Positions 15,901 through 58,490 of a stretch of DNA of 64,000 nt are shown here, piece after piece. The DNA comes from Naegleria gruberi (Eukaryota): NCBI GenBank assembly GCA_000004985.1, contig GG738922.1. The stretch is one strand, 5' to 3'. The number at the start of each line of letters is the position of its first letter. Within the stretch, counting starts at the first letter, position 1. Position numbers and translations under genes: made by a program. Below the pieces are notes generated by a model that saw only the letters and a program-made list of their open reading frames with translations, was not told the DNA's origin and did no database searches.

Positions 15901-16800
15901 CATTTCCAACTTTTCTAAAACACTTTGCTTGTCAATATCTTGATCAAATTGGAAGAACATGAATGGGAGTTGAGAAATTGGAAAGCTGTTACCTGAAGGG
16001 ATACAACTGAGAATTCTAGCTGTTGGTGTCTTAAACGTTGCTGATAAATCATCTCCTAAAGTATGTCCATGCACGGACTTGGTCTTTTCTTTTATAACCT
16101 TGTAGGAAAACTCGGTTGATCTGTCAAATCTGAATCGAGGTTGAAACACTAAAGATTTAGTACCAATCCATTTCCACTTTCCTTCTTTAACATTTTCTGT
16201 TACTGGACTAATTTCAATAAAATCAATCTCTTCAAATGATTTAGTTTCTCCATCAAATTCTTCAATCATGTCATGACTAAATGTAATGGAAATGAATGGC
16301 ACAGATGCAACTTCTGAATTTTGTTTACCAGTTGGCACTGCTCTAACAATTCTAAACTTCTCTTCCTTCTTCTTTTCCAAAGCATTTTGAGCAAGTTGAT
16401 TTCCGATACTATTCACCATTTCATCAACTGCATTCACAGATTTTGGAGGAAATTCAATTTGATTTTTGACTTGGAAAGTACCAGGTTCTGGTGGTTTGAG
16501 AGTTTGTTCTCTGATCAGGTAATTTTCTTGAAGAGATTGTTCTTGATCCTGTTGATCCTTCATCAATTCTCCCAACAAGTTTTCCAAACTCTCCTCATCT
16601 AAATCTTCAATTTTAAATACTGAATCATCAATTATTTTGTTTTCTAGAGAGGCTTGTTCATCATGATCGGATGCAAATTGTTGATCATCATTCTCTCGGA
16701 TCAGAGCAGATACAACATCCTTGCTGTCTCCCTTCTTTACATGGAGAACCAATTGTTGATAATCGAGCAATTCGCTATCAATTTCTTCTTCAATCTTCAT
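9979..16800 (-). CDS. alpha-2-macroglobulin/TEP family large protein (2273 aa) with non-canonical thioester-like motif
   Basis: RNNFKPDAAF...GSITLDFKLTDALTKFKVTAVV matches the A2M core consensus R.xFPETW...PDSITTW. PYECNEQIASKLLG corresponds to the thioester region (CGEQ replaced by CNEQ). A Cys-rich block sits in the bait position. There is an acidic 400-aa N-terminal extension and no obvious signal peptide. Confidence 0.55.
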   Translation of the reverse strand: MKIEEEIDSELLDYQQLVLHVKKGDSKDVVSALIRENDDQQFASDHDEQASLENKIIDDSVFKIEDLDEESLENLLGELMKDQQDQEQSLQENYLIREQTLKPPEPGTFQVKNQIEFPPKSVNAVDEMVNSIGNQLAQNALEKKKEEKFRIVRAVPTGKQNSEVASVPFISITFSHDMIEEFDGETKSFEEIDFIEISPVTENVKEGKWKWIGTKSLVFQPRFRFDRSTEFSYKVIKEKTKSVHGHTLGDDLSATFKTPTARILSCIPSGNSFPISQLPFMFFQFDQDIDKQSVLEKLEMKVSSYKIGVELLEDTSIISKMLAETDYSKKFPYVYNLYYRSLKNVHDPKRCMWIKLLVANDTLHAGKNYRKIGLGEYLSVWLRPGFKSLEGPLVSTHETSTGVRGYSKMVVSDHYPKKHFFFNEIYPGCSFTFRFNNPIDLEKVDSIEKFVQLEPVLNNYKVKADGNTIIIAGDTLAREKYSVKILKGVPDIYNQIMESDYSATFEVSGEDREFNMTLPTFSVMPPCLFDNNEPFLYFDSVNIQETHVIINQVDPIEMYKECVYPKFAPKTFFNSYDNYAHFDWNPRKPHSFGKQVFDQKVQTENFVKDRTVSTKIMLPEFLQNGKTGSVLVHFKPKRSILYSLFSGYQARWVQVSNLCVDVVSIAGEKLGVFVTDFSTGKPVDNAEVTMFDTKNYYPDKETRTMDVRSVTEKTNERGMAYFTCIQGYHHVSIAVSKDTDQVVYTNPSVYVHSTRQDTNIAHIFNDRGLYKPNETVHIKGFIRNLIYDTNKDSENYGTYAITTQISKKEVTYEVFDNSRVKYLDGKVELSANGSFVLDLVIPDNVNLGSHSVTFSFDGQRFQQTVCWNHTFKVEEFRTREYTVSSSIIPSSEKVDLFVGEKFINKVSAKYYSGGGLSNSTVNYSLNTTSKNFTPEGWSNYIFQETDLRNNYKLDRLLNSVKSKTRLYSNINGTTDSNGDDHLSIILWDPEKLVTSPISVSCNANVQDINRQTQRTSSEVILHSCKYYIGVRCTKRVVMKSDENIDCFFVVTDIKGKVVKDVPISVKLVQFGYDSKGYEKWETTNPIKEIKLTSQDQPLLHTFKLSEENKDTAYGEYAILCEVKEDETPKHRSGINRCSIPIRKLGYREHLTSKGYASLNTSGIELITNKFENDEYQPGEDAKVYIVSPFSGDCTGVAWILCNRLIKQETFDISSDVGMYELTIPIKKEYRPNIQVKVQLVGKENYVDIDDMTRVNPTQASGSIDIQISKSSHELDVTVTPKDTILSPGKETSVTVLVKDKQGNTVPNSEVCLIVCDQAVLDMANHSIEDPLSLFVINNSCSFNCDSIRESVRYWLYPRKNQRDAEIMEQTQTSLRLSNRAGYDGSGRQIQVLDDLENQCCDMSCQSVRFHKKAACLFLPSFSCCRKHSCNECECTCSSSSSAICGGCRGCAMPSMNDRKDVFQIRNNFKPDAAFIGFAQTDENGSITLDFKLTDALTKFKVTAVVNAKEDLIGIGSSAITTNLPIAVRPSLPRFLNYGDLCDLTYILQNQTDSDLTLSLVCQVTNLRIFNGKNKNQRKKGFSVVIPAQGRKEVRIPVQVLKCGKALINIGVRVVRAVAKNPEKQGIADEMVGWSDAVKNDFKIFTPATNEAFATYGDVSETNDNVLQPISLPSKNILAHFGEFSVSTSTTALSTLTDSLIYLYSYPYECNEQIASKLLGIVSMKEMILQFYTPEELKKLMDISGREEIDTFIDTNLARLFERQRYDGAFSYWSNNLIGDPFLTCHVAFCFAKCKSEGYKIPDQILSRTKSILKNISSLFFFGFIWPRSVKDTIKAYAFYILSLLADSETDKEQVISLCEGILDHYNTLTELTQELNPESAAYLAMSIHRCKKEQVEEKKGFFAKFINEKISVYQWLEAIKSYFKENVTIDSGIYAHFITRYEDNELAQMVMLHSNTRTDAVVLGCLMEIDREDSSDIIQKLVRSLLAARNANRYGRWYNTQENSICLISLTDYFKIFEKEVPDMNVNTWLVDSTRPEETFFMGNQSWKGRSREKKITSLPVTAFVPRADINKEVINPDENDSKKSFLLTKNGTGRLYYRIALSYTPQEFTLKSLDRGFSISRVYEAITNPDDVKFDKNTKTWKVKSGELVRVNITICNPTRRYNVALVDKLPAGLEVVNPEIDTQLTNFGNGGNENELANNHYFKWFENQNIRDERVEAFARILYEGTHVYSYICRATTLGSFVAPSTYMEEMYSPECFGRSKTEFVQVYDKK

Positions 16801-32008: not shown

Positions 32009-35000
32009 TTATTTCAATTCCACTTCAGCCTTTTTCTGTTTAAACGATAATACTCCAATGAAATAAGCATGATTAAGAGGCGCACATTTAAGTTCATTTC
32101 TCACAGCAGAACATCCTGGATAAATGTATAATTTTCCTTGATATTTGCTATTGTCTATCTTGACATAAAAGACTTTCTTCTTATCTGCCAATACACGAGC
32201 AGCCTTGTCAATTTTAGAGTTCAATGTATTGGCTCCAAAAGGATCAGTCTTGTTATATATATTGAATACAACTCCTTTCATTTCGAAATCCCAATCAGCC
32301 ATACCTTTGATGACAAGGTTGCTATCAAATACACCTCTAAAAGATTTCTCTGTCAAACCCTCTATTGTAATATTTTCAAAATCGTATGATTTCCCATCAG
32401 ATATGTGCACTATTTCTGCGTAAGGTAAATGGTTTGAAGTGGAATCAGAAGAATCAGCAGAGAGAGGGGAATTTTGAGGAATTGGTTCGGTCTTTACAGT
32501 ATTGTTCACTGTGTGGCCTCCTAATCTTCTTTCACTTCTGTATGTTTCTGGGATGGTAGAATAGGATGCAGGAGAAGGGTTATCCAATCTAGGAGTGTAT
32601 CTTCCGTCATTATATCTACTATTGTTGCTTGAGCCTCTATAACTGTCAGTACGATCTGACCTACTGCTACTACCAGAATAACGAGAATAACTTCCACGAT
32701 CATCATACCCACCTCTTCCATATGAGCTATGATATGGAGACTTTGAGTCTCCATAATCTCTTGGTGAGGGTCTGTAGGAGCTGTGTGAAGTGTAAGGTGA
32801 TCTGGAGTCTCTAGATTCTCTTGGTGAAGATCTATATGATGAAGATGGTGAAGGCTTTGAGGTTGCATAATTAGATTCACTTGGAGAACGAGGAGCTGTG
32901 TACGATGATCCGCTATATCTGTTTGAGTTTCTATTCATTTCACTTGGAGAACGAGGGGCTGTATATGATTGCTTGGAAGATACATAGCTCGATGAAGATC
33001 TGTTTGAAGAATTATTGGATGAATTGAAATTGGACCCCATTTCACTTGGAGAAAGTGGTGCAACATAGACAGATGAGGAGGGTTTTTGTGTATTGTAACT
33101 GTTAAATCTAGTTGAACTTGTATGTGTATTACCACTACTGCTAAATCTAGTTGAGCTTGCATTCATTTCACTAGGGGAATGAGGAGCTGTATATGAAGAT
33201 CCACTGTATCTAGTGGTTGAATTGCTTGGAGTTGAATTGGTTATTTCANNNNNNNNNNNNNNNNNNNNNNNNNNNNNNNNNNNNNNNNNNNNNNNNNNNN
33301 NNNNNNNNNNNNNNNNNNNNNNNNNNNNNNNNNNNNNNNNNNNNNNNNNNNNNNNNNNNNNNNNNNNNNNNNNNNNNNNNNNNNNNNNNNNNNNNNNNNN
33401 NNNNNNNNNNNNNNNNNNNNNNNNNNNNNNNNNNNNNNNNNNNNNNNNNNNNNNNNNNNNNNNNNNNNNNNNNNNNNNNNNNNNNNNNNNNNNNNNNNNN
33501 NNNNNNNNNNNNNNNNNNNNNNNNNNNGTTTCAGCTGTTGGTCTATTTGAAGGAGAAACTGGTGGAACCTGAGTATTGCCAGTGTTACCATCACTACTAG
33601 AAATGTATTCTGTGGAACTAACATTTTGATGTTTTTTCTTATTCTTAGGTTCTTCGAGAGGAACTTCAGATGGATCAATACCTTTTGAGGATAAGAATTT
33701 GTTTCTATTCTCTAAATATCGTTGCTCCCTATCTTGTTGTGATTTCGTATGTTGCTGCATGAAGGCTGCAATTCCTCCTCCTCCGCCTCTTGATGTGGGA
33801 GTAGTTGTGGAGCTTGGTTTGGTTTCAGTTGTTTTGGTGGATACTGTGGGAGAAACAGTTGTAGCACTAGGTACAATATTTGGTGTTCTTTCCTCCTTGG
33901 TTGACTGTTTAGCTAAAAAACGTTGTTTATCCTCTTCGAACTTGTTCTCCTTATCTTCTTTTGCTTTGGTGTGTTGTTGCATGAAGGCTGCAATTCCTCC
34001 TCCTCCACCTCTTGATGTGGGAGTAGTTGTGGAACTTGGTTTAGTTTCATTAAGGGGCGAAATATTCTTAAAGGCACGAAAATTGGAGCCCGATTCACTC
34101 GGAGAAAGTGGTGCAACATAGGTCGAGATTTTTTGTGTATTGTCACTGTTAAATCTAGTTGAAATTGCATTCATTTCACTTGGAGAGCGAGGAGCTGTAT
34201 ATGAAGATCCACTGTATTTAGTGGCTGAATTGCTTGAAGTTGAACTGGTTGTTTCACTTGGAGAACGTGGTACAACATACGAAGATGATGAAGATTGTGC
34301 ACTGTTAAATATTTTTGAAGTTGTGTCTATTTGACTTGGAGGGGATACGTTCCTAAAATTGGCAGATGGAGTATTTTCTGATGGAGATCTTGGTGCTGTA
34401 TATGAAGATGAACTAGAGGGTACATTGATGGTATTAAATCTATTCTGAGTGAAACTGCTCGACGAATTGGTACCACTATTTGAAATTGGTGGATTAAATA
34501 TTTCATTATTTCTAATTGTGGTATGTGGAGATGATTTTCTGGCTTCACTTGGAGAAATTGGAGCTACAAAGGGAGTATTGGATCTAAAGCTAGTTGGCTT
34601 TGATCCCATTTCAGTTGGGGAGCGTGGAGGGATGTATTGCTGATTATTAACAACTGGTCCTTGAGTATCTACAATATTATGGGCTGAGGCAACTGTTTTA
34701 CCAACCTCACTTGGAGAAATAGGAGCTGTAAATAAAGGGGTGGTGTGTGTTGGTGGATTAGTAATGGTGCCTTGGCTGAATTGTGTTAAATATCGGGGAT
34801 CCCTTAATCTAGGATCGCTAGGGAATGTATTTAATCTTGGGTCAACTGGTACAAATGTAGAACTTCCTGGTGGCAACTTGAACTGTGGTGAGGTGGTTTG
34901 AGTTATTGGATTAGTTACTAAGGAAGAGCCAATAGTGGTTGATGTATTAGAAACTCCATTGTTGACACCAGTAGTAAATGCGTTATTACCAAAGGAAGAA

Positions 35001-35974
35001 TTGATTGTTGAAGAATTAGAAGGAGGCAAACTCATTGATGAATTGGTTGGAGTTGGGTTTGAGGTTGGAGGAATTTGTTGACCATTGATAGAGTTTGGTG
35101 GAATTTTAACTGCTTCCACAGCATTTGATCTATTAAGCCTTGGAATACTGATTGTAGATAAGGGTCTTTGTTCTGCAGGTTGATCACTTTGTGTCTTTGC
35201 TGCTGTAACAATGTTCCTCTTTGGAATTTTGAAAGGAGGCTGTTTCACACTACCAACCTCTGTTTGTGGCTTTTTCTTAACCTTAGAAAGAGGATTGGAA
35301 TCTTCCTTTGGAATATTTACAAGATTAGGCTGCTGTGAAGAGCTACCAGTAGTTGTGTCTGTCTTTGTCAACTTGATCTTTTTTGAATCTTGATTTTCTT
35401 CTTCCGAAGTAGAGTCCTCATCATCCATTACAAGCTTTTTACGTTTCTTTACCTCTGAATTAGCCTTCTTCTTGGATTCTTTTACTTCCTTCTTTTTAGT
35501 TTCCTTCCTTGTTTCCTTTTGTTTTGCATTTTGTTTTTTCCTCTGTGGCTCCTTTTTAGATGATGAAGAAGAAGAAGCTTGTGGTTGATGATGTTGAGGA
35601 AATTTGGGACTAACATTGTCTGTACTACTACTTCCGATATCGTCTGTGGATGACCTTTCGGGACTTGACAATGGAGAATCACTAGTTGTACTTTCCTGTT
35701 CCGATTTAATTGAGTTGATGCAGGTTGCAATTTCAGACTGCCTTGCTTCAAACTCTTCCACAATAGTCATCACACCATTTAGTGTTACATTTTCATAGGA
35801 TTCCCACGTACAATCATCGAATGGATAGTTGGCCCATTTGACGAGATAAAGTGGTTTACCTCTCTCGTAACGTTTTGCTAGAATAAATTCCGCATCATAG
35901 ATGCATTCATCTTCTTCTACCATTTTACACAAAATTCTGTGGTCAATTTTGATGTACGGAAGCCTATTTGTCAA
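32009..35974 (-). CDS. chromodomain protein with long (S/T)PSE-repeat region; CDS interrupted by assembly gap
   Basis: N-terminal chromo domain YDAEFILAKRYERGKPLYLVKWANYPFDDCTWESYENV. A K/E-rich basic region follows. More than 12 copies of YTAPRSPSEMN-type repeats flank the N gap. The C-terminal approximately 150-aa domain looks globular and is unassigned. Confidence 0.7.
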   Translation of the reverse strand: MTNRLPYIKIDHRILCKMVEEDECIYDAEFILAKRYERGKPLYLVKWANYPFDDCTWESYENVTLNGVMTIVEEFEARQSEIATCINSIKSEQESTTSDSPLSSPERSSTDDIGSSSTDNVSPKFPQHHQPQASSSSSSKKEPQRKKQNAKQKETRKETKKKEVKESKKKANSEVKKRKKLVMDDEDSTSEEENQDSKKIKLTKTDTTTGSSSQQPNLVNIPKEDSNPLSKVKKKPQTEVGSVKQPPFKIPKRNIVTAAKTQSDQPAEQRPLSTISIPRLNRSNAVEAVKIPPNSINGQQIPPTSNPTPTNSSMSLPPSNSSTINSSFGNNAFTTGVNNGVSNTSTTIGSSLVTNPITQTTSPQFKLPPGSSTFVPVDPRLNTFPSDPRLRDPRYLTQFSQGTITNPPTHTTPLFTAPISPSEVGKTVASAHNIVDTQGPVVNNQQYIPPRSPTEMGSKPTSFRSNTPFVAPISPSEARKSSPHTTIRNNEIFNPPISNSGTNSSSSFTQNRFNTINVPSSSSSYTAPRSPSENTPSANFRNVSPPSQIDTTSKIFNSAQSSSSSYVVPRSPSETTSSTSSNSATKYSGSSYTAPRSPSEMNAISTRFNSDNTQKISTYVAPLSPSESGSNFRAFKNISPLNETKPSSTTTPTSRGGGGGIAAFMQQHTKAKEDKENKFEEDKQRFLAKQSTKEERTPNIVPSATTVSPTVSTKTTETKPSSTTTPTSRGGGGGIAAFMQQHTKSQQDREQRYLENRNKFLSSKGIDPSEVPLEEPKNKKKHQNVSSTEYISSSDGNTGNTQVPPVSPSNRPTAEXXXXXXXXXXXXXXXXXXXXXXXXXXXXXXXXXXXXXXXXXXXXXXXXXXXXXXXXXXXXXXXXXXXXXXXXXXXXXXXXXXXXXXXXXXXXXXEITNSTPSNSTTRYSGSSYTAPHSPSEMNASSTRFSSSGNTHTSSTRFNSYNTQKPSSSVYVAPLSPSEMGSNFNSSNNSSNRSSSSYVSSKQSYTAPRSPSEMNRNSNRYSGSSYTAPRSPSESNYATSKPSPSSSYRSSPRESRDSRSPYTSHSSYRPSPRDYGDSKSPYHSSYGRGGYDDRGSYSRYSGSSSRSDRTDSYRGSSNNSRYNDGRYTPRLDNPSPASYSTIPETYRSERRLGGHTVNNTVKTEPIPQNSPLSADSSDSTSNHLPYAEIVHISDGKSYDFENITIEGLTEKSFRGVFDSNLVIKGMADWDFEMKGVVFNIYNKTDPFGANTLNSKIDKAARVLADKKKVFYVKIDNSKYQGKLYIYPGCSAVRNELKCAPLNHAYFIGVLSFKQKKAEVELK
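33248..33527. other. assembly gap (280 N) inside the chromodomain gene
   Basis: Run of N. It is flanked on both sides by near-identical SPSE-repeat coding units, which suggests a collapsed repeat. Confidence 0.95.
33740..34060. repeat. tandem direct duplication (approximately 224-bp period, 2 copies) within CDS
   Basis: The first copy (from about 33751) and the second copy (from about 33975) are near-identical, with the shared core gcatgaaggctgcaattcctcctcctcc(g/a)cctcttgatgtgggagtagttgtgga. Each encodes KPSSTTTPTSRGGGGGIAAFMQQHTK on the minus strand. Confidence 0.85.
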
Positions 35975-36213: not shown

Positions 36214-38793
36214 TTATCTCAATGTCATCATGTCATTGCTTAGGGTATGAGTTGTTTGATTTGAAAAGAATCGACCAAATTGCTTTGATCCAAACGAAGA
36301 AGATTGACTGCCAGAGTGTAGAATGTCTGAAGCACTCGAAAAGATCTTCCAGAAACGTAATGTCTGATCACCAGCTGCTGAAACTACAGAGCTTCCATCT
36401 GGAGATTGAGCCAAATGCAATACTCTGCTTGTGTGACCAGTGAGCTCAGCAACCTTTCTCAAACTTGGATACTTCCATACAATCAATTGATTCTGAGAGA
36501 AACCATGAGAGGAAACAAGTTCCTTATCATACTTGGACCACAATAAACTACACACTTGAGATTTAGTATCCACAGAGTTCAAAAGAGCACCATTAGAAGT
36601 ATTCCAAAAGTGAATCTTTCTATCGGCTGTACCACCTCCAGAGGCCAACAAATTGCTCTGCCATGGACACCAAGCAAGAGCCTTAACTGCTGCAGTATGT
36701 TCATTGAATGTGAATAGAGCAGGCGAGAAGCTAGCACTACTAGCATCCCAAATATGAAGAGTATTGTCGTTACCACCTGAGGCCAATTGAGATCCATCTG
36801 GAGACCACTTTAAGCCACAAACTTCCTGGTTGTGACCTGAATAGACAGAAACAACTTGACTTGGATATTGAGGAATGGTTTCATGTTGATGAAGGAACAT
36901 GCCATGGCTATTAGAATGAATAGCACCTGGACCTATTCTTACATCGTGATTTAAAATCTTTCCATCTCTAGATCCAGATGAAAGAATAGATTGACAACGA
37001 GGATTCCATGAAAGGGAACCAACTCTTGCCTGATGACCAATCATTCTTCTTACCATGGTCTTTCTCTCGACGTTCCAAATCTCAATAGTGCAATTGTTTG
37101 TTCCTACAGCAATGTGATGACCATCAATAGTCCAGGCAACACTGGTAACCGTATTATCTGTTTCTTCTTCCTCATTGTCATTCGTTTCCATGAGCTTGGT
37201 AATATTTCCATTGTTTGCATCCCACAAATAGACAGTATCAAAGAGGGATACTGCCAATAAATTTTGTGAGCTCCAATCCAATAAATTTAAATAAAAATCA
37301 TCAACCAATTTTGGTGCATCGAGTATTCTCTCTGGAATTGCAGAAATAGATCTGTGTCGTGAGTTGGAACTGCTTCCTCCTTGGAGCAGTTGTCTCTTTT
37401 CCATTTCTGTCATTTGAGAGAATTGCTTGTTGCAGGAAAATACTGCTTGGAGCTTGTTTTGAATATTGGTATCAGCACTGGTTGGTGTTTGGCTACTTCT
37501 CTTTGGAGAGAATGGTACATTCACAGCATTACCTCTTCTGATATTTTCCTGATTGTCAAATATGGAATCACTCACACAATCTGCCGAGTCAGCTCCCCTG
37601 GTGCTAAAATCAAAGAAGAGATCCTGATCATCAGGATAGGATGTATGAATGTTGGAATTGGTTGGTTTGAATTTGAAAATCTTCTTTTCAGAAATCTTGG
37701 AATCCAACAATCTACTTTCCAAACAAGACTCGAATTGATATGGCATATTCATTTGTGAGCTGGTGGATGAACCTTGCTGACCACTGCTTGGAGATCCTGG
37801 TGTATTGGCATTTCCATCATTAGATGTAAACATTAAATGTTTGGCAATTTCCATTTCAGATTGGGTGCATCTTTGAGGTATAAATCTGTCAGCATGTAGA
37901 GATGGGGAATTTAGAATGACATCAAAGTTTCTTCTCTTCGAAGCAGGAGACATATTCCATCCAGCACTAATGTCTGTATTCTTCTTAGGTGAGGTCATAT
38001 TGGTTGGTGTGAAGGTTTTTGGAGTTAGAATAGATTCTGATAAAATTGCAGATGGATCAAACACTTCACCACAACTACTCGAAAAATTATCTTGCAAATC
38101 GTTTGAACAAGTGTTAACACTATTAGTTTCCCCAGCTAAACTTGAAAAATCCAATCGTTTCACAACTGATGGCTTACGATCACCAAAAGGTGCCACCACT
38201 TTCTTAGTTGTCTTATTGCAAGAGGTTAAACAATTTCTATCATTGACAAGCTGAGCACCAAGTTGAATCTTGAGCCCATTTCCAGGTTGAGGAATGTGTT
38301 GTTGAAGAGGAGCTTGCTTGAGTGGTGAGAGGGCAGAGTGAGGATGAATTCGTTTCTTATTATTTGGTGAGAGGGGATTATTTTGGAGGTGTAAATTTAC
38401 ATTATTATTGTGCAGAGATAGCCCATTGCCTCTACCTTTCACTGGAACATTAGTTACTAAATGACTTGGAGCAGTTCTTGGACATGTTGGACTCTCTGGT
38501 TTGTTATGTCTTGGTGTTTGTACAAGGTTTTGAGCATTAGGTGGCATTGATTGACCACTAAAAGGAAGAGAAGAGAATTGATTATTATTATTGGATCTAG
38601 GTGAGGTAAACAGCAAGGAATCGGTCATGTTACTTGTAGAGGTTGGTAAAGAGATTTTCAACCCACTATTCAGTACCAATGAATGTCTTTTGCTATTATT
38701 ATTATTATTATTCTGCTTATGTGGGGAAAGATGATCCAACAAGCCTTTCGTTGGAGAGGATGGCAAGGGAGAAGTGAGCAGGAGATTGGACAT
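36214..38793 (-). CDS. CDC20/CDH1 (Fizzy-related) family APC/C coactivator, WD40
   Basis: C-box DRFIPQR. Seven WD40 repeats with family-typical strings [29 protein letters not shown] and [15 protein letters not shown]-terminal ...TLR tail. The long S/N-rich N-terminus is like Cdh1. Confidence 0.85.
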
Positions 38794-40614: not shown

Positions 40615-43218
40615 TTACATAATGGTTTGCCTAGTTGCCTTCTTCTTCTTGATTGATTTTACTCTTTCAGCGAAGCTCAATGCATGAACTGTTTCTGCAC
40701 CAAATCGTTCTTGAGGAGATACAGTAACAATGATCAAAATCTTACTATCACCAGAAAGTGAGTCTTTCAGAACATGAGTTAACCTAGAATTTCTAAATGG
40801 AACATGCTTTTGTTTTGATGCCAAGGCTACTATTACATCTTCAAGAGCTGATAAACTCTTATTAACGAATGAAGTTTCAGTCAATTGATCTCCAGCTACC
40901 CCACTCATTTCCACATTTTCACTTCCTGCTAAATCTACAAATCTCAACACAGATTTAGTGTTCACTTGTTGAGGTGAAAGAAGTTCATCAAAGAAGTCTT
41001 GTTGGTTATTGGTTTTCATTCCCAATAATTCTTCAAAGAGTTGACTTGCATTCTCCTTCTTTTTCGGTATAACTCGCTTTTCAATTTCCACCGAAATAAT
41101 GCAATGAGATCGACTACTATTTGAATTCATCAGAGTCTTGCTTTCAGTTCTCTTTACAATGCAGTCCTTAATTATTTGCCTCAATTGTTCCTCACTTTCT
41201 ACCTTTACATAGTTCAAATCGTTTGATGATTTGTACTCTTTCTCTGGATTGATAAGGTCTCTCAATTCATTATTGTAAACTTCTGCAATACTCAATCTTA
41301 AATTAGCATTATAGTAACATTGGTTCACTTCCATTATTCGATAAAGCTCTGTAATAGATCTTGGTACAATTCCAGGCTCAACCAATGAACCATTCATTGT
41401 AAATGTTTTCCCTGAACCTGTTTCACCAAAAACCATTAAACACGTATTGAATCCATCAAAAGCCGAGCTTACTAATGGTCTTATATCGGAAAAGATACCA
41501 TCCTGGGTGCTCTCCATTCCATAGACTTGATCCAACTCGAAGGATCTATTTCTTCCCATCCTAGATATTGCCACCACTGAATCTGTGGTCTTTTCTTGAG
41601 AAATACAACTTTTCACACGGTATGAATTGTGAGCCATGTTTTTTTCTGATTCCAGAACCCACATTGGTCTAATTCTACAACACACTCTGAGATTTCCTCG
41701 TTCTTCTATTAATTGATTTTGTAATAACTTTCTTACTTGTTGCTCATGCACATATAGAGTATTCAGTTGAGCAAATCTATCCTCTTGGAATTGAATCTTT
41801 TTCTGGAAAAAGTTTGTCACTGTTGGAATGTCAAGTTTTTCAGCTGTTTTCCGTATGATTATTGTTGACAACTTTTGAAGCATGTCACTTGGGATTAAAT
41901 TCATAACATGAGTTTTCATCAACTCCAAATCACTTTTAGTGGATCGACAAACTTCAAGAGCATTCTTTGAGAATGACAGTAAATCGAGATTTGAATTTAC
42001 AACCTGACAAGCATCAGTTTGCACAAACACCTGACTAAATTCTTTTGCTTCTGGTTTTTCTATCACAATTGACTCTATTATTGATACATCATTTGTCGAT
42101 TCTGCTACCTCTTTGCGAAGTTGTTTCTTCTCGTTTTCCAACTCTTTAATTCTCAATTGATAATCCTCCAATTTTTGATTGTGTTGTTTGGTGAGATTTT
42201 TCACAAAATTTTGATAATAATTCTTCAATTCGGATTGTTTAGACATGGACTTTTCCATGCTGTTTTGAAAATCTTCCAATTTCTGATTTGCTGTTAAAAG
42301 GGCAGCTGTTAAAACTGAAATTCTTTCCTGCAATTCATTCACAGAAACTGAAGGACTTGAAGAGAGGGAGCCATGTTCTGAGAGATTTGGTGAATCGAGT
42401 TCATCATTTTCTGTCGATTGATTACTATTATAACTTTGTTCATTATTGGATGATGAGTTTTTAATGCTCTGTGTCAACAAACTTGCTCCATTATTGGTGT
42501 TGTTGTTAGTAGTATAGTTACTAAGGGAAGACGAGTTCATATTAGTGCTTGTAGATAGTCTCCTTCCTGTTATTGTTGTTGGTGACAATACTTCTCCACT
42601 TGTTAGAGTGGTTGGAGAATTTGAATCAGAGTTTATGCCACTATTACCATTGTTATTATAATTTTGAAGTAGTTGGTTTAGACCTGATAACTTGTCCGTC
42701 AAGCTATTCCTATGTATTTTGTATCTGAATTTAGAACCGTCCTTAGATTCAATATCAATATGGTCGTTTTGTATATTTCCTCTCCTATCAAAAGTAATTC
42801 GTTGTTCTCCTCCTCCTGAAAAGCTATTAGAACGATGTGGTGATAATCCTCTTTCTTGTTCCGATTTAATTTTCCCTAATTGTGATAAACCTGGTGAGGA
42901 TGATGTTCTAGCAAAACCCGATTGTTGTTGTTGTTGATTAGTGTTAATCTTCAATGAATTGTGTCGATGAGAGTAATTTTCACTTTTTAAACTTCCTCCA
43001 CTCGTATTGCTACTTGATGTATTAAGGCTTGAATTTGTGCTAGAAACTGTCCTCAAACTTGATAATTCTTCATCGTCATCTACATCAGTAAATGTATTTC
43101 TATTTGAATTATTATTATTATTGTTATTGGTATTACCAGAAATCATGACATTATTTGTTGCTTGATGAGGTTTATTCGGAAGACTCTGCCGATTCAATTC
43201 AAGCAAGCTCCTTCTCAT
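40615..43218 (-). CDS. kinesin-14 (C-terminal motor) family kinesin
   Basis: N-terminal low-complexity region plus coiled coil. The C-terminal motor has GNLRVCCRIRP, the P-loop FGETGSGKTFTM, switch II VDLAGSE, and SSRSHCI. Confidence 0.85.
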   Translation of the reverse strand: MRRSLLELNRQSLPNKPHQATNNVMISGNTNNNNNNNSNRNTFTDVDDDEELSSLRTVSSTNSSLNTSSSNTSGGSLKSENYSHRHNSLKINTNQQQQQSGFARTSSSPGLSQLGKIKSEQERGLSPHRSNSFSGGGEQRITFDRRGNIQNDHIDIESKDGSKFRYKIHRNSLTDKLSGLNQLLQNYNNNGNSGINSDSNSPTTLTSGEVLSPTTITGRRLSTSTNMNSSSLSNYTTNNNTNNGASLLTQSIKNSSSNNEQSYNSNQSTENDELDSPNLSEHGSLSSSPSVSVNELQERISVLTAALLTANQKLEDFQNSMEKSMSKQSELKNYYQNFVKNLTKQHNQKLEDYQLRIKELENEKKQLRKEVAESTNDVSIIESIVIEKPEAKEFSQVFVQTDACQVVNSNLDLLSFSKNALEVCRSTKSDLELMKTHVMNLIPSDMLQKLSTIIIRKTAEKLDIPTVTNFFQKKIQFQEDRFAQLNTLYVHEQQVRKLLQNQLIEERGNLRVCCRIRPMWVLESEKNMAHNSYRVKSCISQEKTTDSVVAISRMGRNRSFELDQVYGMESTQDGIFSDIRPLVSSAFDGFNTCLMVFGETGSGKTFTMNGSLVEPGIVPRSITELYRIMEVNQCYYNANLRLSIAEVYNNELRDLINPEKEYKSSNDLNYVKVESEEQLRQIIKDCIVKRTESKTLMNSNSSRSHCIISVEIEKRVIPKKKENASQLFEELLGMKTNNQQDFFDELLSPQQVNTKSVLRFVDLAGSENVEMSGVAGDQLTETSFVNKSLSALEDVIVALASKQKHVPFRNSRLTHVLKDSLSGDSKILIIVTVSPQERFGAETVHALSFAERVKSIKKKKATRQTIM

Positions 43219-53885: not shown

Positions 53886-54641
53886 TCATTTATGCTTAAA
53901 TTTTCCACCATTATGTTTGCGCTTTAATTTTGATGATTTAAAATCTGAACTTTTCTCCTTGCCAAACCAATAAAATAGAATACAGGGAGAAACAACTAAA
54001 CAAATTGCTCTCCATAAATCAAATCCCAAATAAGCCAATATTTCTCCAATTAAACTACATACAAAGACAGCACCTTTCCAACTGTTAAAACTGAATAGGC
54101 ATAATCCATTAATGAACTTAACCAATTTGAACTTGAATAGATAGTCCTTTACAATTGTAACTCTAGAAGCTACAAATTTAGATACAGTTATCATCAATGG
54201 AGGACTTTTCATAACATCTATACAATTCTCTTCTGGAAGCATTCCACAATCAGCATGTTCAAAACTTTTATCACACTTTTCTCTCTTAAGCAACTCACAA
54301 ACATTTCTACAAAGAAAAAATAAAGAAATTAATATTTGTTGATGTTCTGGGTTACATGGTGCACACAAAAGCTTTGGCACAATTGACATGCACAAATCTG
54401 AAGGCTTGGAATTACTAGTATGGTTCAGTTTCTTCCCGATATCATGGTCCTCAGTTGGAGAGCAGCATGAATTGTCTTGGAAATCTGGACAAGCTTTACA
54501 TTCAGGACACGGAGCTGGATATTGCTGTTGGCGAACACAAATCGGTTGTTTAACAGTTGTAGCTGTTGTGTCATCAGCTTGGTAATAGCCAATAACTGCC
54601 AACACAATGTAAACTGTGGTGAAGATTAAAAATTTGTTCAT
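53886..54641 (-). CDS. cysteine-rich secreted/membrane protein, hypothetical
   Basis: Probable start MNKFLIFTTVYIVLAVIGY (signal peptide). A Cys-rich ectodomain is followed by two C-terminal hydrophobic helices. The listed ORF extends 5' to 54776, which is probably UTR. Confidence 0.4.
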   Translation of the reverse strand: MNKFLIFTTVYIVLAVIGYYQADDTTATTVKQPICVRQQQYPAPCPECKACPDFQDNSCCSPTEDHDIGKKLNHTSNSKPSDLCMSIVPKLLCAPCNPEHQQILISLFFLCRNVCELLKREKCDKSFEHADCGMLPEENCIDVMKSPPLMITVSKFVASRVTIVKDYLFKFKLVKFINGLCLFSFNSWKGAVFVCSLIGEILAYLGFDLWRAICLVVSPCILFYWFGKEKSSDFKSSKLKRKHNGGKFKHK

Positions 54642-54861
54642 TTTTTTGCTAATAATAATTGAAATTCCAATAATTAAATGGTGAAACATTACAATGAATA
54701 AACTCCCAAAACGAAATTCTAATTGACATACATGCATATCTCTACTTAGCAATATCAGGAGATTGAAAACCATCACATACCATCATATTGTGCACATTCC
54801 AACTAAGAACTATGCAATAAGAATCACTACGATTTCTTGTTATCTCAAGCAACATTAAAAA

Positions 54862-57406
54862 ATGACAAAAGTCACCCCAGAACCAATACTAGAAGAGAAA
54901 AAGACAGGACTAGAACAATTACTTCAAGAAGAAGAGACCTCAAGTCAAGTAGAAGTAAAGGAAACGAGAGAACGTAATGTCTTTCTCAAATTTATCCTCA
55001 GTATTAGATTATTCCTAATTGCAATGATTACATTGGTTGTCTTATTGACAGCTATTTCAATTTGGGTTACTGCCTATACAATGAATGAGCAAGCAGCATT
55101 AGAACAAGTTGATGTAATTATTGCTAACATGAATCAAAAGATTTCTTCCTTTGTAAATAGTCAATTACTTCCTGCTAAATATGTTGCAGATTCCATGGTC
55201 AATGATTACTATAATGGCTATATTGATATGGTAGATACCATTCGACCATACATATTTGAACGAATTAAAACATTTGGTGTTACTGTCGCTAATCTGTGTT
55301 TTGGTGAGGGAGGTAACAATGCACTATTTGCCTACTCTGTTACTGCTGATGGAAATGTTGTCTTTGTAACAAAGAGACAGAATGAAAGATTCATCATGTA
55401 TAAGGCAAATATCACTAATGGTGAATACTACCTTGACAAGGTGACAACCAATATTACCTATACTGTTTCTACTACCGATTACTATTCAGAATCTGTTGCA
55501 CTAATGAAGAAATATCCAACTGGAGCTTTTGGAGCACCATACAAAGGTAAGTTGCAACATGCAATGTATTTCTTTAACATGTTTGATAATTACAGTAATT
55601 AATGGTCCTCAATCAACCTATTGGAGTACTCCTGTCTATAACAGGACAGAGCTTCCTGAGAAGAAGAATAGAATTGGTTTTGCCAAGATTAATATTTCTC
55701 TGGCTGCAATTGCTCAATTTTTGGCCAATGTTAAAGTTCTAGAACGTGGCTTTGTAATCATCTCAGAATATGACAATGATTATGTCATTGGCAGCTCCTT
55801 GAAAATCTCAGGAATTGAAGATAAAAGAATCAAGGCAACTAATATTACCACAAGAAGTGCTGGCTCAGTAATGGCCAAACTGCTAAAATATCAAAAAGAT
55901 AACCAAATCAATAATACTGAAAGTATTGCCACCATTTTAACAAGTGATGATGGTGAACAATTCTTGGTTTCCTCTTCTCCTTACTCTTTTTACAATTTGC
56001 AATGGAGAATGACCCTTGTGTTTGATGATACTGAAATCAAGAAGGGAATTATTCAAAGTAGTTATGTCATTCTTGGTGTTTCACTAGGTGTTGCTGCATT
56101 GGGTATTATTGTGAGTGTCATTATTGGTTGGTCTGTCACAAGTCCATTCATCAAACTGCAACAAGATTTCAAAAAGATTGAAATTCTAGATCTTATTTCT
56201 ATCAAACCTAGATCATCCATATTCAGTGAGGCTAACTCTATCTATTCCAGTTTAACTGAAACAGTTCGTTGGTTAAGTGAAATTAGAGCTTTCATTCCAG
56301 ATTCTATTCTAAACCAATTAGAAATAACAAAACTCATGAAAGAAGGTGAGAAGAAGGAATCTTATGAACCAGGTCTATCATTCAAAGCAAGTAACCATAG
56401 TATGCAAAAGACAAATGGTGAATCAAAGAGTAATTTGTCTCAATCATCAGATGGTCATTCCAAGATTTCAAAACATGATGCTCATGCAGCAAATAACATG
56501 TTCAAAATAGGTCTTTCCACAAAGGACTGCTCTATCATTTACATGACAGTTCCAAATCTTGATGAAGAAAGCTATGAATATGAATCAGGTTTGCTTTCCA
56601 GCTTGATTTCCAAAGCTCTTACTTCCATCAGTACTATTTGTAAGACCTGCAAAGCTGATTTCCAAATCAAGAGTTATAATGAATTTATCATTGTCTTTAC
56701 CGATAAGAATCCATCTGTAACTGCCTTGGAAACCTCCCTCAAAATTGTAACCCTATTGAATTCATTGAATGAAACAATAGCCAAAGATGGACATCCAAGA
56801 ATTAAGATGTGTGCCTCTATTACTAGTGGCAGTACCATCATGGGTAACGTTGGCAGTAAGCAAATGCGGTACTTTGCAATGGTTGGCCCAGTTGTGAATA
56901 GAGCTAAAGAATTGAATGATTTCTGTAACTTGCTAGATGTTTCAGTGGTGTGTGATCATGTTACAAAACAAAAAGCCAAAGATTCCTTCATATTTAGACC
57001 TGTTGAGAGAACCATTGGAGAGCATCATCACATTCAAACTGTCTATCAACTCGTTAAACGTTCCCAAGTACAAGATGATGAATGGCTCTATGAATTAGAA
57101 CAGAAGAAAGCCAATGCCAAATTTGATGAATTCCAAGCTGATTTTAACAAGATTTTCGAGAATGAAACACTCACAGACTCTGATATGGAATTGGTTCTTG
57201 CACATCTTGTTGAATCGAGTCAAAGTTCTCCAAATGATATGGTCATCAAGAGGCTTGAACAATTACTTTCGGAGAGCAAGCTGAAGAGAGAACACCAATT
57301 TAAAAATTATTACACAACTGTTGGGAAGCAATTTGTGAGTTACATGAGGCCGGGTGAGCCTATCCAATCCATGACCTACCAGAGAGAAGAAGAAGAAGAT
57401 CTTTAA
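54862..57406 (+). CDS. single-pass receptor-like protein with class III nucleotidyl cyclase homology domain (possibly catalytically degenerate; 2 exons)
   Basis: Exons are 54862..55546 and 55596..57406, with a GTAAGT donor in phase 1. TM helices lie near residues 50-75 and in the middle of the protein. The C-terminal domain HPRIKMCASITSGSTIMGNVGSKQMRYFAMVGPVVNRAKELNDF matches the RIGIHxGxVxxGxxGxxRxxYxxxGxxVNxAxRxE cyclase core. The first metal-Asp position reads MTVPN rather than FxDIxGFT. Confidence 0.5.
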
Positions 57407-57515: not shown

Positions 57516-58205
57516 TTAGAAAGCAAAGAACAACAAGGCAACCAAAGCAAGAACAAAGAAGGAGACTTTCATTGTGGCACAATTGTTTGCAGTAGTAATG
57601 GTAGTACTATTAGAGGAAGACGGATTGGTAGATATCTTATTGCATTGAACCTTAACCTTGTAACCATCAACACAGAGTCCATTAGTATCAGGCAATGCCT
57701 TTTCACCAGTGGTACAAGCAGTATCAGTATAAGCCTTAAGGTTTCCACATCCATAGATCTTGAGAGCCCTGAAATCAAAGAAGATAACTTTGCTAGCAAC
57801 AGAGCTCAAAGCATCTGGAAGAGTTGGCATTTGAATACATACAGAAGAATCGAGGTTATCACTAACACTGAATACGGCAGAAATCTTAGCACCATCAGAT
57901 GAAGAACAAGTAGCATCAGATGGACCATAATAGCTAATCATGGCAGTACCAGTTGGTGCTTCAGCAGGCATAGTCTTTTCAGCACAACTAGGCTTGACGG
58001 TCAAGCTACCAAGAGAAGAACAAGAAAGATCAGTACAAACTGGATCTAGGAGAGGAATCTTTGTATTAAGGGTAACATTACCAATAACATCACTTGAACA
58101 ATCAGAGGTCTTGTAAATCGCAAAGCGTTCATTACCAGAACCTAAGGCCAAAACATATTGGAGGGAGACCAATCCCAAGAAGAGAGCAATGATAACTGAT
58201 TTCAT
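57516..58205 (-). CDS. secreted Cys-containing surface protein with C-terminal GPI-anchor-like signal
   Basis: Signal peptide MKSVIIALFLGLVSLQYVLALG. S/T/C-rich body. C-terminal hydrophobic tail VSFFVLALVALLFFAF preceded by small residues (an omega-site-like region). Confidence 0.5.
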   Translation of the reverse strand: MKSVIIALFLGLVSLQYVLALGSGNERFAIYKTSDCSSDVIGNVTLNTKIPLLDPVCTDLSCSSLGSLTVKPSCAEKTMPAEAPTGTAMISYYGPSDATCSSSDGAKISAVFSVSDNLDSSVCIQMPTLPDALSSVASKVIFFDFRALKIYGCGNLKAYTDTACTTGEKALPDTNGLCVDGYKVKVQCNKISTNPSSSNSTTITTANNCATMKVSFFVLALVALLFFAF

Positions 58206-58490
58206 TGTTGTGTTAGTTTTGTTTTTGCTTGGCTTTTTTACGATCTTCAAGAAAAAGCAGCTGATGAATTCCGGTTTCGCCAACAGGCATTGACTACAAA
58301 AGCGAAATAGCATTCTCCAACGTAGTTACCGTATAGTTGAGTATACCATCAGTTATTCCCATCACAAATAACATCTAAAAGAACATAATGTTTTTCTAAA
58401 AAGCTTGTCTTGGATAATTACTGGCTATTCAAGTAATGTGTTTTAAGATAGATGATGATTTGATTTGTCTTTCACATTTTGATAAGATGC

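What the first reader, a model, noticed from the sequence alone, without database searches (positions are those of the whole stretch)
54862..57406. Receptor-like protein with cyclase-homology domain that may be a pseudo-cyclase
The C-terminal domain retains the RIGIHxGxV...G..R..Y...G..VN.A.R.E core of class III adenylyl/guanylyl cyclases. The first metal-binding Asp region reads MTVPNLDEE rather than F(S/A)DIxGFT. It sits behind an extracellular domain and TM helix. It could be a ligand-regulated cyclase with divergent catalytic residues or a regulatory pseudoenzyme.
Basis: partly seen in the sequence, partly recalled or inferred. Interest (0 to 1): 0.5.

Follow-up and report, generated by a model that had tools for sequence, protein, structure and literature searches.

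The report
Naegleria dCache receptor with dead cyclase domain
This Naegleria gene encodes a membrane receptor with a bacterial-type ligand-sensing outer domain wired to a well-conserved cyclase-fold domain that lacks essential catalytic residues, so it probably signals without making cAMP or cGMP, and many relatives in Naegleria and its kin look the same.

Summary
The gene is real. It has two exons (54862-55546 and 55596-57406, with a 49-nt intron) and encodes 831 aa. The organism is a Naegleria species, not Dictyostelium.

Architecture: TM1, a dCache-fold ectodomain, TM2, a HAMP-like segment with a transducer-like motif, a Ser/Lys-rich linker, a class III cyclase-homology domain (CHD), and a helical C-terminal domain found only in this family.

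CHD homology is below threshold for this sequence alone (Pfam 18 bits against a cut-off of 21.9). It is secure at family and fold level:
- 13 of 15 relatives match PF00211.
- The family profile matches CyaB at 1.3e-6.

Of the six canonical catalytic positions, only Lys587 and Asn663 are kept. Metal Asp A is Thr546, metal Asp B is Glu591, the substrate Thr/Asp is Ala656, and the transition-state Arg is Glu667. None of 70 family members has Asp at the metal-A position. Sister proteins with the same ectodomain have fully canonical CHDs (79-97 bits).

The degenerate CHD is under purifying selection (dN/dS about 0.13). The pseudo-cyclase reading is supported. What the domain outputs is only inferred.

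The parts
54862..55546 (+). Exon 1 (aa 1-228 plus the first base of codon 229): N-terminal cytoplasmic tail, TM1 and the first half of the ectodomain
   Evidence: ORF and splice reconstruction. The N-terminus MTKVTP aligns with MPKVTP of the homologues.
55547..55595 (+). 49-nt intron (GTAAGT...TTACAG), phase 1
   Evidence: Read directly from the sequence. Present in the same-species contig L003 and absent from the orthologous contig L001, whose reading frame runs straight through the junction.
55596..57406 (+). Exon 2 (aa 229-831 plus the TAA stop at 57404-57406)
54982..55077 (+). TM helix 1 (aa ~41-72)
   Evidence: Hydropathy scan. A helix in the AlphaFold model of the orthologue.
55078..56056 (+). 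Extracellular double-Cache (dCache) fold sensor domain, aa 73-382 (interrupted by the intron). It carries six N-x-S/T sequons. The usual R-x-W-Y ligand motif is replaced by T-x-D-Y-Y.
   Evidence: Foldseek of the orthologue model against PDB hits dCache ligand-binding domains of Mlp24, PctA, Tlp3 and TlpC (E 1e-8 to 1e-10, target TM 0.64-0.74). It aligns with sister proteins that match Pfam dCache_1. No Pfam hit for the window protein itself. Sequons.
56057..56146 (+). TM helix 2 (aa ~383-412)
   Evidence: Hydropathy scan; model helix 373-425.
56147..56326 (+). HAMP-like juxtamembrane helices plus the cyclase-transducer-like motif EIRAFIPDSILNQL (aa 413-472). This is the most conserved segment of the protein.
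   Evidence: Nearly invariant columns. dN/dS 0.06. Aligns with FLKYVPHDVVKTI of the canonical sisters. Pfam HAMP and hhalign gave no match and model confidence is low, so HAMP identity is unproven.
56327..56497 (+). Ser/Lys-rich low-complexity linker (aa 473-529). This insertion is absent from the canonical sister cyclases.
   Evidence: Alignment gap in all four canonical sisters. dN/dS 0.53. pLDDT below 50. Composition.
56498..57055 (+). Degenerate class III cyclase-homology domain (aa 530-715)
56546..56548 (+). Thr546 at the position of metal-binding Asp A
   Evidence: No Asp at this column in 70 family members.
56669..56671 (+). Lys587, the substrate (adenine)-specifying Lys, retained
56681..56683 (+). 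Glu591 at the position of metal-binding Asp B. Invariant Glu in the close subfamily.
   Evidence: Glu in 43 of 70 in the wider family.
56876..56878 (+). Ala656 at the second substrate-specifying position (Thr in the canonical sisters and in CyaB)
56897..56899 (+). Asn663, the transition-state Asn. Retained here but variable among paralogues.
56909..56911 (+). Glu667 at the position of the transition-state Arg
   Evidence: Arg in only 3 of 70 family members.
57056..57403 (+). Family-specific C-terminal domain (aa 716-831). It opens with the DEWxYELE motif and is modelled as three helices plus a beta-hairpin.

Best explanation
The gene encodes a receptor-type pseudo-cyclase of a Naegleria species. 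A bacterial-type double-Cache ectodomain sits between two TM helices. It is followed by a HAMP-like segment and a conserved cyclase-transducer-like motif, then a disordered Ser/Lys-rich linker, a class III cyclase-fold domain, and a C-terminal helical domain found only in this family.

The cyclase-fold domain keeps its core and its dimerisation-arm motif (GNVG...R). It has lost metal Asp A (Thr546), the transition-state Arg (Glu667) and the second substrate residue (Ala656).

Shown: the domain architecture, the fold, the residue substitutions, family-wide loss of the catalytic set, purifying selection, and the existence of sister proteins with the same ectodomain and fully canonical cyclase domains.

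Inferred:
- The protein dimerises like other dCache/HAMP/CHD receptors.
- Ligand binding outside is relayed through TM2, the HAMP-like segment and the transducer motif to the CHD-like dimer.
- The dimer makes no cAMP or cGMP.
- Instead the dimer, together with its C-terminal domain, acts as a ligand-controlled, non-catalytic interaction or regulatory module.

The family arose by duplication from a canonical dCache-adenylyl-cyclase lineage and expanded in Heterolobosea behind several different sensor modules.
For: Gene model and junction.

Taxon: homologues only from Naegleria, Willaertia, Percolomonas and metagenomes.

dCache fold. Canonical sisters hit Pfam dCache_1 and align along the whole ectodomain.

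CHD fold and homology.

Residue mapping agrees across three independent alignments: HMMER profile against CyaB, phmmer against OaPAC, and MAFFT with four canonical sisters plus CyaB.

Family-wide degeneracy:
- 0 of 70 have Asp at metal A and 3 of 70 have Arg at the transition-state position.
- Only 4 of 159 top relatives carry both canonical motifs, and those four share only the sensor half.
- Canonical sisters score 79-97 bits on PF00211, against 18 bits here.

Constraint: dN/dS is 0.13 for the CHD, 0.11 for the ectodomain and 0.06 for the HAMP/transducer segment, against 0.53 for the linker. ORFs are intact across genera.
Against: - No activity data exist. Inactivity is inferred from sequence alone.
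- Active class III cyclases can lack single canonical residues. Ma1120 is active with Ala in place of the Asn (PMC4215837).
- Glu591 is invariant in the subfamily and a conserved acidic residue follows in P-N-L-x-E, so a non-canonical metal site cannot be excluded without coordinates or an assay.
- No partner or output is identified. The C-terminal domain has no known relative.
- dS is saturated (about 1.5), so the dN/dS values are rough.
- The full-length model was made on the 69%-identical orthologue, not on the window protein.
Confidence: 0.7

Rival explanations
1. The protein is a ligand-controlled inhibitory or regulatory heterodimer partner. The degenerate CHD pairs with a canonical CHD of a sister cyclase. 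Each composite site then lacks either metal Asp A or the transition-state Arg, so the receptor lowers or gates cAMP synthesis by the active partner.
For: Class III sites form at the dimer interface from residues of both chains (established knowledge from mammalian C1/C2 and sGC alpha/beta). Canonical sisters exist with the same ectodomain, the same HAMP-like segment and the same GNVG arm motif. The arm region GNxG...R is the most conserved part of the degenerate CHD.
Against: No co-occurrence, co-expression or interface analysis could be done. The degenerate family greatly outnumbers the canonical sisters among the retrieved relatives (4 of 159). The family-specific linker and C-terminal domain are not explained.
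Confidence: 0.25
2. It is still an active adenylyl or guanylyl cyclase that uses non-canonical residues, for example Glu591 plus a relocated acidic residue (Asp552/Glu553) for metal binding and a Lys in place of the Arg.
For: Glu591 and Lys587 are conserved in the subfamily, and Asn663 is present in this protein. Lys666 lies next to position 667. Some active cyclases deviate at single positions.
Against: Metal A, the Arg, the Asn and the second substrate position all vary freely among close paralogues (T/S/H/K/L; E/N/D/T/H; N/Q/A/K/D), which is not expected for a working active site. The phosphate-binding G-F-T turn is replaced by an acidic N-L-D-E stretch. PF00211 scores 18 bits against 79-97 bits for the sisters.
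Confidence: 0.1
3. The degenerate CHD is a nucleotide-binding sensor that binds ATP or GTP without turnover, like the class III cyclase-like ATP-binding protein of Pseudomonas aeruginosa.
Against: The acidic substitutions at the phosphate-binding turn, the loss of one metal ligand and Glu at the Arg position all disfavour triphosphate binding. Similarity to 6yii is lower than to active cyclases.
Confidence: 0.1
4. It is a decaying pseudogene or an artefact of the gene model, for example a hidden intron that removes the catalytic motif.
For: The public N. gruberi model P0003 is itself mis-built in this region, which shows that annotation errors occur here.
Against: The reading frame is intact and collinear with more than 10 homologues from three Naegleria species. 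The intronless contig L001 has the same degenerate motifs. dN/dS is 0.13 in the CHD. The model has pLDDT 93 with no gaps.
Confidence: 0.02
5. The domain is a GGDEF-type diguanylate cyclase relative rather than a class III cyclase domain, since KSYNEF resembles GGDEF.
For: dCache-HAMP-GGDEF is a common bacterial architecture. The hairpin S-Y-N-E-F superficially resembles G-G-D-E-F.
Confidence: 0.01

Closest known systems
Canonical dCache - TM - HAMP-like - class III adenylyl cyclases of heteroloboseans. Examples are the sister proteins P0068, P0072, P0137 and P0090 found here, and the 'bacterial-type adenylate cyclase' with a Cache domain noted for Naegleria by Upadhyay et al. 2016 (PMC4822843).
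   Same: Homologous ectodomain, TM2, juxtamembrane segment, transducer motif (F-x-x-[FY]-[VIL]-P), GNVG arm motif, R-P/L-[VI]-[DE]-R strand and a C-terminal helical extension. They align collinearly end to end.
   Different: The sisters have F-T-D-I-V-Q-F-T, K-Y-I-G-D-A and G-D-x-V-N-x-x-S-R, score 79-97 bits on PF00211 and keep the dCache R-x-W-Y motif. The window protein has T546/E591/A656/E667, a 55-70 aa low-complexity insertion before the CHD, the DEWxYELE C-terminal domain and T-x-D-Y-Y in the ectodomain.
Pseudomonas aeruginosa CyaB (PDB 3r5g), and the class III cyclases Cya2 (2w01) and OaPAC (5x4t)
   Different: These are active enzymes with both metal Asp residues and the Asn/Arg pair visible in the alignments. 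Identity to the window CHD is only 12-17%.
Class III adenylyl cyclase-like ATP-binding protein of P. aeruginosa (PDB 6yii)
   Different: A soluble bacterial transcriptional regulator with a different architecture. The window CHD is closer to active cyclases than to it. Nucleotide binding looks less likely here.
Degenerate second sites of pseudo-heterodimeric cyclases (mammalian tmAC C1/C2, soluble guanylyl cyclase alpha/beta)
   Different: In those enzymes each chain still supplies one complete half-site, so one site works. The window CHD lacks essential residues of both half-sites.
Bacterial dCache chemoreceptor and histidine-kinase ligand-binding domains (Mlp24, PctA, Tlp3, TlpC, mmHK1S)
   Same: Same double-PDC fold with a long N-terminal helix, placed between two TM helices.
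   Different: 10-17% identity. The output module is different. The carboxylate-binding R-x-W-Y signature is not kept, so the ligand class is unknown.

Membership tests
Class III nucleotidyl cyclase catalytic domain (CHD, Pfam PF00211) | Characteristic fold with a dimerisation arm, closer to cyclases than to GGDEF or polymerase palm domains | tested here: met
Class III nucleotidyl cyclase catalytic domain (CHD, Pfam PF00211) | Sequence-profile match above the curated threshold | tested here: inconclusive
   The window protein scores 17.9-18.3 bits against a gathering score of 21.9. However, 13 of 15 relatives match (best 6.6e-8), the family profile hits PDB cyclases at 1e-6, and hhalign gives 95.7% probability.
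Class III nucleotidyl cyclase catalytic domain (CHD, Pfam PF00211) | Two metal-binding Asp residues (F-x-D-I-x-G-F-T and G-D-x-x-M) | tested here: not met
   Thr546 and Glu591. 0 of 70 family members have Asp at the first position.
Class III nucleotidyl cyclase catalytic domain (CHD, Pfam PF00211) | Transition-state Asn/Arg pair (V-N-x-A-S-R) | tested here: not met
   Asn663 is present, but the Arg position is Glu667. Both positions vary among paralogues.
Class III nucleotidyl cyclase catalytic domain (CHD, Pfam PF00211) | Substrate-specifying pair (Lys + Asp/Thr for ATP; Glu + Cys/Ser and others for GTP) | tested here: not met
   Lys587 is kept; the second position is Ala656 (Thr in the sisters and in CyaB).
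Class III nucleotidyl cyclase catalytic domain (CHD, Pfam PF00211) | Cyclase activity | not testable with these tools
   Requires an enzyme assay.
dCache_1 / double-Cache extracellular sensor | Double PDC fold with a long stalk helix between two TM helices | tested here: met
   Foldseek E 1e-8 to 1e-10 and target TM 0.64-0.74 to dCache ligand-binding domains, using the model of the 69%-identical orthologue P0002. TM helices.
dCache_1 / double-Cache extracellular sensor | Pfam dCache_1 profile match | tested here: not met
   No hit at E <= 1 for the window protein or its 14 close relatives. The homologous sisters hit at 1e-6 to 1e-8, below the gathering score.
dCache_1 / double-Cache extracellular sensor | R-x-W-Y ligand (carboxylate)-binding signature in the membrane-distal module. 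This feature rests on my own knowledge of amino-acid-binding dCache domains. | tested here: not met
   The sisters have T-R-x-W-Y; the window subfamily has T-T-D-Y-Y.
HAMP domain | About 50 residues of helix-connector-helix directly after the TM helix, with a conserved Pro, and a Pfam PF00672 match | tested here: inconclusive
   Pro412 and a heptad-like pattern are present, and the model shows helices 373-425 and 439-459. There is no Pfam hit, no hhalign alignment to the HAMP of P0176, and pLDDT is below 50.
GGDEF diguanylate cyclase | GG[DE]EF hairpin, Pfam PF00990 match, and closest fold neighbours being GGDEF domains | tested here: not met

The most novel reading that the evidence does not exclude
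A large, undescribed family of receptor pseudo-cyclases exists across Heterolobosea (Naegleria, Willaertia, Percolomonas) and possibly wider Discoba. It has at least 86 clusters at 50% identity. Diverse sensor modules (dCache, ankyrin, RCC1-like) feed through a HAMP-like/transducer segment into a catalytically dead cyclase dimer that has been turned into a new non-enzymatic output domain together with the DEWxYELE C-terminal module. If so, a sizeable share of the 81-108 'cyclases' counted in Naegleria genomes would not make cyclic nucleotides at all, and the Cache census for Naegleria ('a single protein') would be an undercount.
Probability: 0.5. Interest if true: 0.6.

Novelty: new variant of a known kind. 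Interest (0 to 1): 0.45.

Why it matters
Naegleria genomes are cited for very large cyclase repertoires: 'at least 81 cyclases' in the pangenome paper PMC9928731. These counts are taken as evidence of rich cyclic-nucleotide sensing. If many of those genes are pseudo-cyclases like this one, three things follow:
1. Counts based on domain hits overstate catalytic capacity.
2. The CHD fold has been reused as a non-catalytic signalling module on a scale comparable with pseudokinases.
3. Bacterial-type dCache sensors are more common in these amoebae than Pfam detects.

Pairs of canonical and degenerate proteins with the same ectodomain also offer a natural experiment on how a receptor is rewired after its enzyme output dies. 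For the pathogen N. fowleri, such receptors could be environment-sensing surface proteins with no human counterpart.

Tried and rejected
I used the orthologue P0002 for the full-length model and the exon-2 translation (aa 520-831) for the cytoplasmic model.
- hmmalign of all 159 relatives to the family HMM misplaced the N-terminal half of the CyaB control by one residue. I did not rely on it for distant members. I used motif scans, the MAFFT 70-sequence alignment and a focused L-INS-i alignment instead.
No per-genome census was possible.
- The afdb50 fold library was unavailable, so the C-terminal domain could not be compared with predicted structures.
- The C-terminal domain profile found only designed helical repeats and calmodulin at E > 0.003 in PDB sequences, and scattered single Pfam hits. 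I treat these as noise.
- The HAMP test by hhalign against a HAMP-containing cyclase aligned only the CHD.
- GGDEF, pseudogene and gene-model-artefact readings were considered and rejected (see rivals).
- tblastn found no second paralogue in the window.
- Literature searches for pseudo-cyclase or degenerate cyclase terms, and for Naegleria cyclases, found no description of this family. The library lacks most subscription-journal papers, so absence is not proof.
- A look-up of the N. gruberi contig for P0003 failed.
Full report
**Observation**

The span 54862-57406 on the + strand holds two overlapping ORFs in different frames. Reading the DNA shows a 49-nt intron, GTAAGT...TTACAG, at 55547-55595. 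Removing it joins the frames into a 2496-nt CDS of 831 codons. The junction reads GAPYK|VINGPQ. A 70%-identical orthologous contig (L001, nearly identical to an N. gruberi protein) has no intron there and reads GAPYKVLNGPQ straight through. A 99%-identical contig (L003) carries the same intron. The gene model is therefore secure.

The window has 34% G+C. All close homologues come from Naegleria gruberi, N. lovaniensis, N. fowleri or unnamed environmental assemblies. The organism is a Naegleria species, not a dictyostelid. No second paralogue lies in the window.

**Architecture**

- Hydropathy gives two TM helices, aa ~41-72 and ~383-412.
- The spliced protein could not be submitted, so the full-length model was made for the 69%-identical orthologue P0002. 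Its region between the TM helices is modelled with good confidence.
- Foldseek against PDB matches that region to bacterial double-Cache ligand-binding domains: Mlp24, PctA, Tlp3, TlpC and mmHK1S, with E 1e-8 to 1e-10 and target TM-scores of 0.64-0.74.
- Pfam does not detect this ectodomain in the window protein or its 14 closest relatives.
- After TM2 comes a Pro-containing helix-connector-helix segment that looks like HAMP. Neither Pfam nor hhalign confirms it.
- Next is the motif EIRAFIPDSILNQL, the most conserved stretch of the protein (dN/dS 0.06). It aligns with FLKYVPHDVVKTI of canonical relatives. From my own knowledge it resembles the cyclase-transducer element that precedes canonical CHDs.
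- A 57-aa Ser/Lys-rich linker follows. It is poorly conserved (dN/dS 0.53) and absent from the canonical relatives.
- Then come the cyclase-homology domain (aa 530-715) and a C-terminal domain (aa 716-831).

**Is it a cyclase domain?**

On its own the sequence scores 17.9-18.3 bits on Pfam Guanylate_cyc (E about 0.002), below the 21.9-bit gathering score. It reaches E = 1e-3 against the photoactivated cyclase OaPAC.

At family level the homology is clear:
- 13 of 15 relatives hit PF00211, best 6.6e-8.
- The family profile finds CyaB (1.3e-6), Cya2 and OaPAC in PDB sequences.
- hhalign to a canonical HAMP-cyclase gives 95.7% probability.

**Catalytic residues**

Three independent alignments agree: the HMMER profile against CyaB, phmmer against OaPAC, and MAFFT L-INS-i with four canonical relatives plus CyaB.

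| Canonical position | Window protein |
|---|---|
| Metal Asp A (F-x-D-I-x-G-F-T) | Thr546 |
| Substrate Lys | Lys587 (kept) |
| Metal Asp B (G-D) | Glu591 |
| Second substrate residue (Thr in CyaB and the sisters) | Ala656 |
| Transition-state Asn | Asn663 (kept) |
| Transition-state Arg | Glu667 |

The claimed retention of 'RIGIH...VN.A.R.E' is not: the sequence is RIKMCASITSG...VVNRAKEL.

Among the 15 close relatives, the metal-A position (T/S/H/V/L/K), the second substrate position, the Asn position (N/Q/A/K/D) and the Arg position (E/N/D/T/H) vary freely. Glu591 is invariant and position 587 is always Lys or Arg.

In 70 members of the wider family no sequence has Asp at metal A, and only 3 have Arg at the transition-state position. 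The signatures F-K-x-G-L, G-N-x-G (both Gly invariant), R653, R-P (696-697) and D-E-W-x-Y-E-L are strongly conserved.

One caveat applies. Single deviations can be tolerated: Ma1120 is active with Ala for the Asn (PMC4215837). Here essential residues of both half-sites are missing.

**Family context**

An exhaustive HMMER search of 1.84 billion representatives found 86 clusters at E <= 1e-30 and 1010 at E <= 1e-10.

- Most of the top 150 share the TM2 - HAMP-like - degenerate CHD - C-terminal module behind different N-terminal regions. These include proteins that source databases label as ankyrin-repeat (P0059, P0089) and one with RCC1-like repeats (P0055).
- 96 of 159 carry the DEW..E motif.
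- Only four (P0068, P0072, P0090, P0137) have both canonical cyclase motifs. These four share the other half of the protein: the ectodomain, TM2 and juxtamembrane segment. They score 79-97 bits on PF00211 and hit dCache_1. P0072 lies on a eukaryotic-looking contig.
- The same sensor is therefore wired either to a canonical K/T-type adenylyl cyclase domain or to the degenerate domain. The shared GNVG arm and R-x-[VI]-[DE]-R strand argue that the degenerate family descends from this canonical lineage.
- Named members come from N. gruberi, N. fowleri, N. lovaniensis, Willaertia magna and Percolomonas cosmopolitus. There is a weaker hit in the diplonemid Artemidia motanka.

**Selection**

Against the L001 orthologue, Nei-Gojobori dN/dS values are as follows:

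| Region | dN/dS |
|---|---|
| CHD | 0.13 |
| Ectodomain | 0.11 |
| HAMP-like/transducer segment | 0.06 |
| Linker | 0.53 |

dS is saturated at about 1.5, so these values are approximate. The dead domain is nonetheless as constrained as the sensor, which excludes a decaying pseudogene.

**C-terminal domain**

**Mechanism**

Shown: a dCache receptor architecture, a conserved relay segment, and a constrained CHD fold without a competent active site.

Inferred: the protein dimerises, ligand binding is relayed to the CHD-like dimer, and the output is non-catalytic, presumably a change in an interaction surface formed by the CHD-like dimer and the C-terminal domain.

**Comparison with what is known, and novelty**

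Public databases label the homologues 'Guanylate cyclase domain-containing protein' or 'predicted protein'.

- The Cache survey of Upadhyay et al. reports a single Cache protein in Naegleria, a bacterial-type adenylate cyclase (PMC4822843).
- The Naegleria pangenome paper counts at least 81 cyclases (PMC9928731).
- I found no paper describing a degenerate-CHD family in Naegleria. The searchable library is limited.

I classify this as a new variant of a known kind: a receptor-type class III cyclase relative turned pseudoenzyme, belonging to a lineage-expanded family. It is moderately interesting. It would be more so if a census confirmed that a large share of heterolobosean 'cyclases' are non-catalytic.

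Noticed in passing
window 145-3927 (+): 1260-aa ORF combining Cys-rich ephrin-receptor-like/NCD3G modules, a GPS (GPCR proteolysis site) motif and a C-terminal RGS domain. It looks like an adhesion-GPCR-like receptor fused to an RGS domain.
   Followed up: no
window 9979-16800 (-): 2272-aa ORF with bacterial-type alpha-2-macroglobulin domains (bMG10, A2M_BRD, MG2, A2M, Big_5) in a eukaryotic genome. It is a possible old horizontal acquisition.
   Followed up: no
window 7477-9066 (+): 529-aa ORF matching T4 RNA ligase 1 (RNA_lig_T4_1, E 2e-32).
   Followed up: no
window 53886-54776 (-) and 57516-58313 (-): The two ORFs flanking the cyclase-like gene are Cys-rich and have no Pfam match. The downstream one has a signal-peptide-like N-terminus and a hydrophobic C-terminal tail, suggesting a surface protein.
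   Followed up: no
L001 501-3014 compared with window 55547-55595: The orthologous contig (N. gruberi-like) lacks the 49-nt intron that the window and the same-species contig L003 carry. This is intron presence/absence variation between Naegleria species.
   Followed up: partly
P0003 (N. gruberi public protein model), aligned to window aa ~498-651: The public 686-aa N. gruberi model lacks about 150 residues, covering part of the linker and most of the CHD, that are present in the near-identical intronless contig product P0002. The public annotation probably has a wrongly called intron or gap there.
   Followed up: partly
window 55078-56056 (ectodomain); sisters P0068, P0072, P0137, P0090: The dCache fold is invisible to Pfam in this subfamily, and its R-x-W-Y motif is replaced by T-x-D-Y-Y. 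The published statement that Naegleria has Cache in a single protein (PMC4822843) is therefore probably an undercount.
   Followed up: partly
P0059, P0089 (metagenome), P0055 (N. gruberi): The same degenerate CHD plus C-terminal module occurs behind ankyrin repeats and behind RCC1-like repeats, so the dead-cyclase output is combined with several different sensor or adaptor modules.
   Followed up: no
window 32009-35974 (-), 36214-38793 (-), 40615-43218 (-): These are ordinary eukaryotic neighbours: a 1320-aa chromodomain protein, CDC20/Fizzy and a C-terminal-motor kinesin. They confirm a nuclear eukaryotic context.
   Followed up: no
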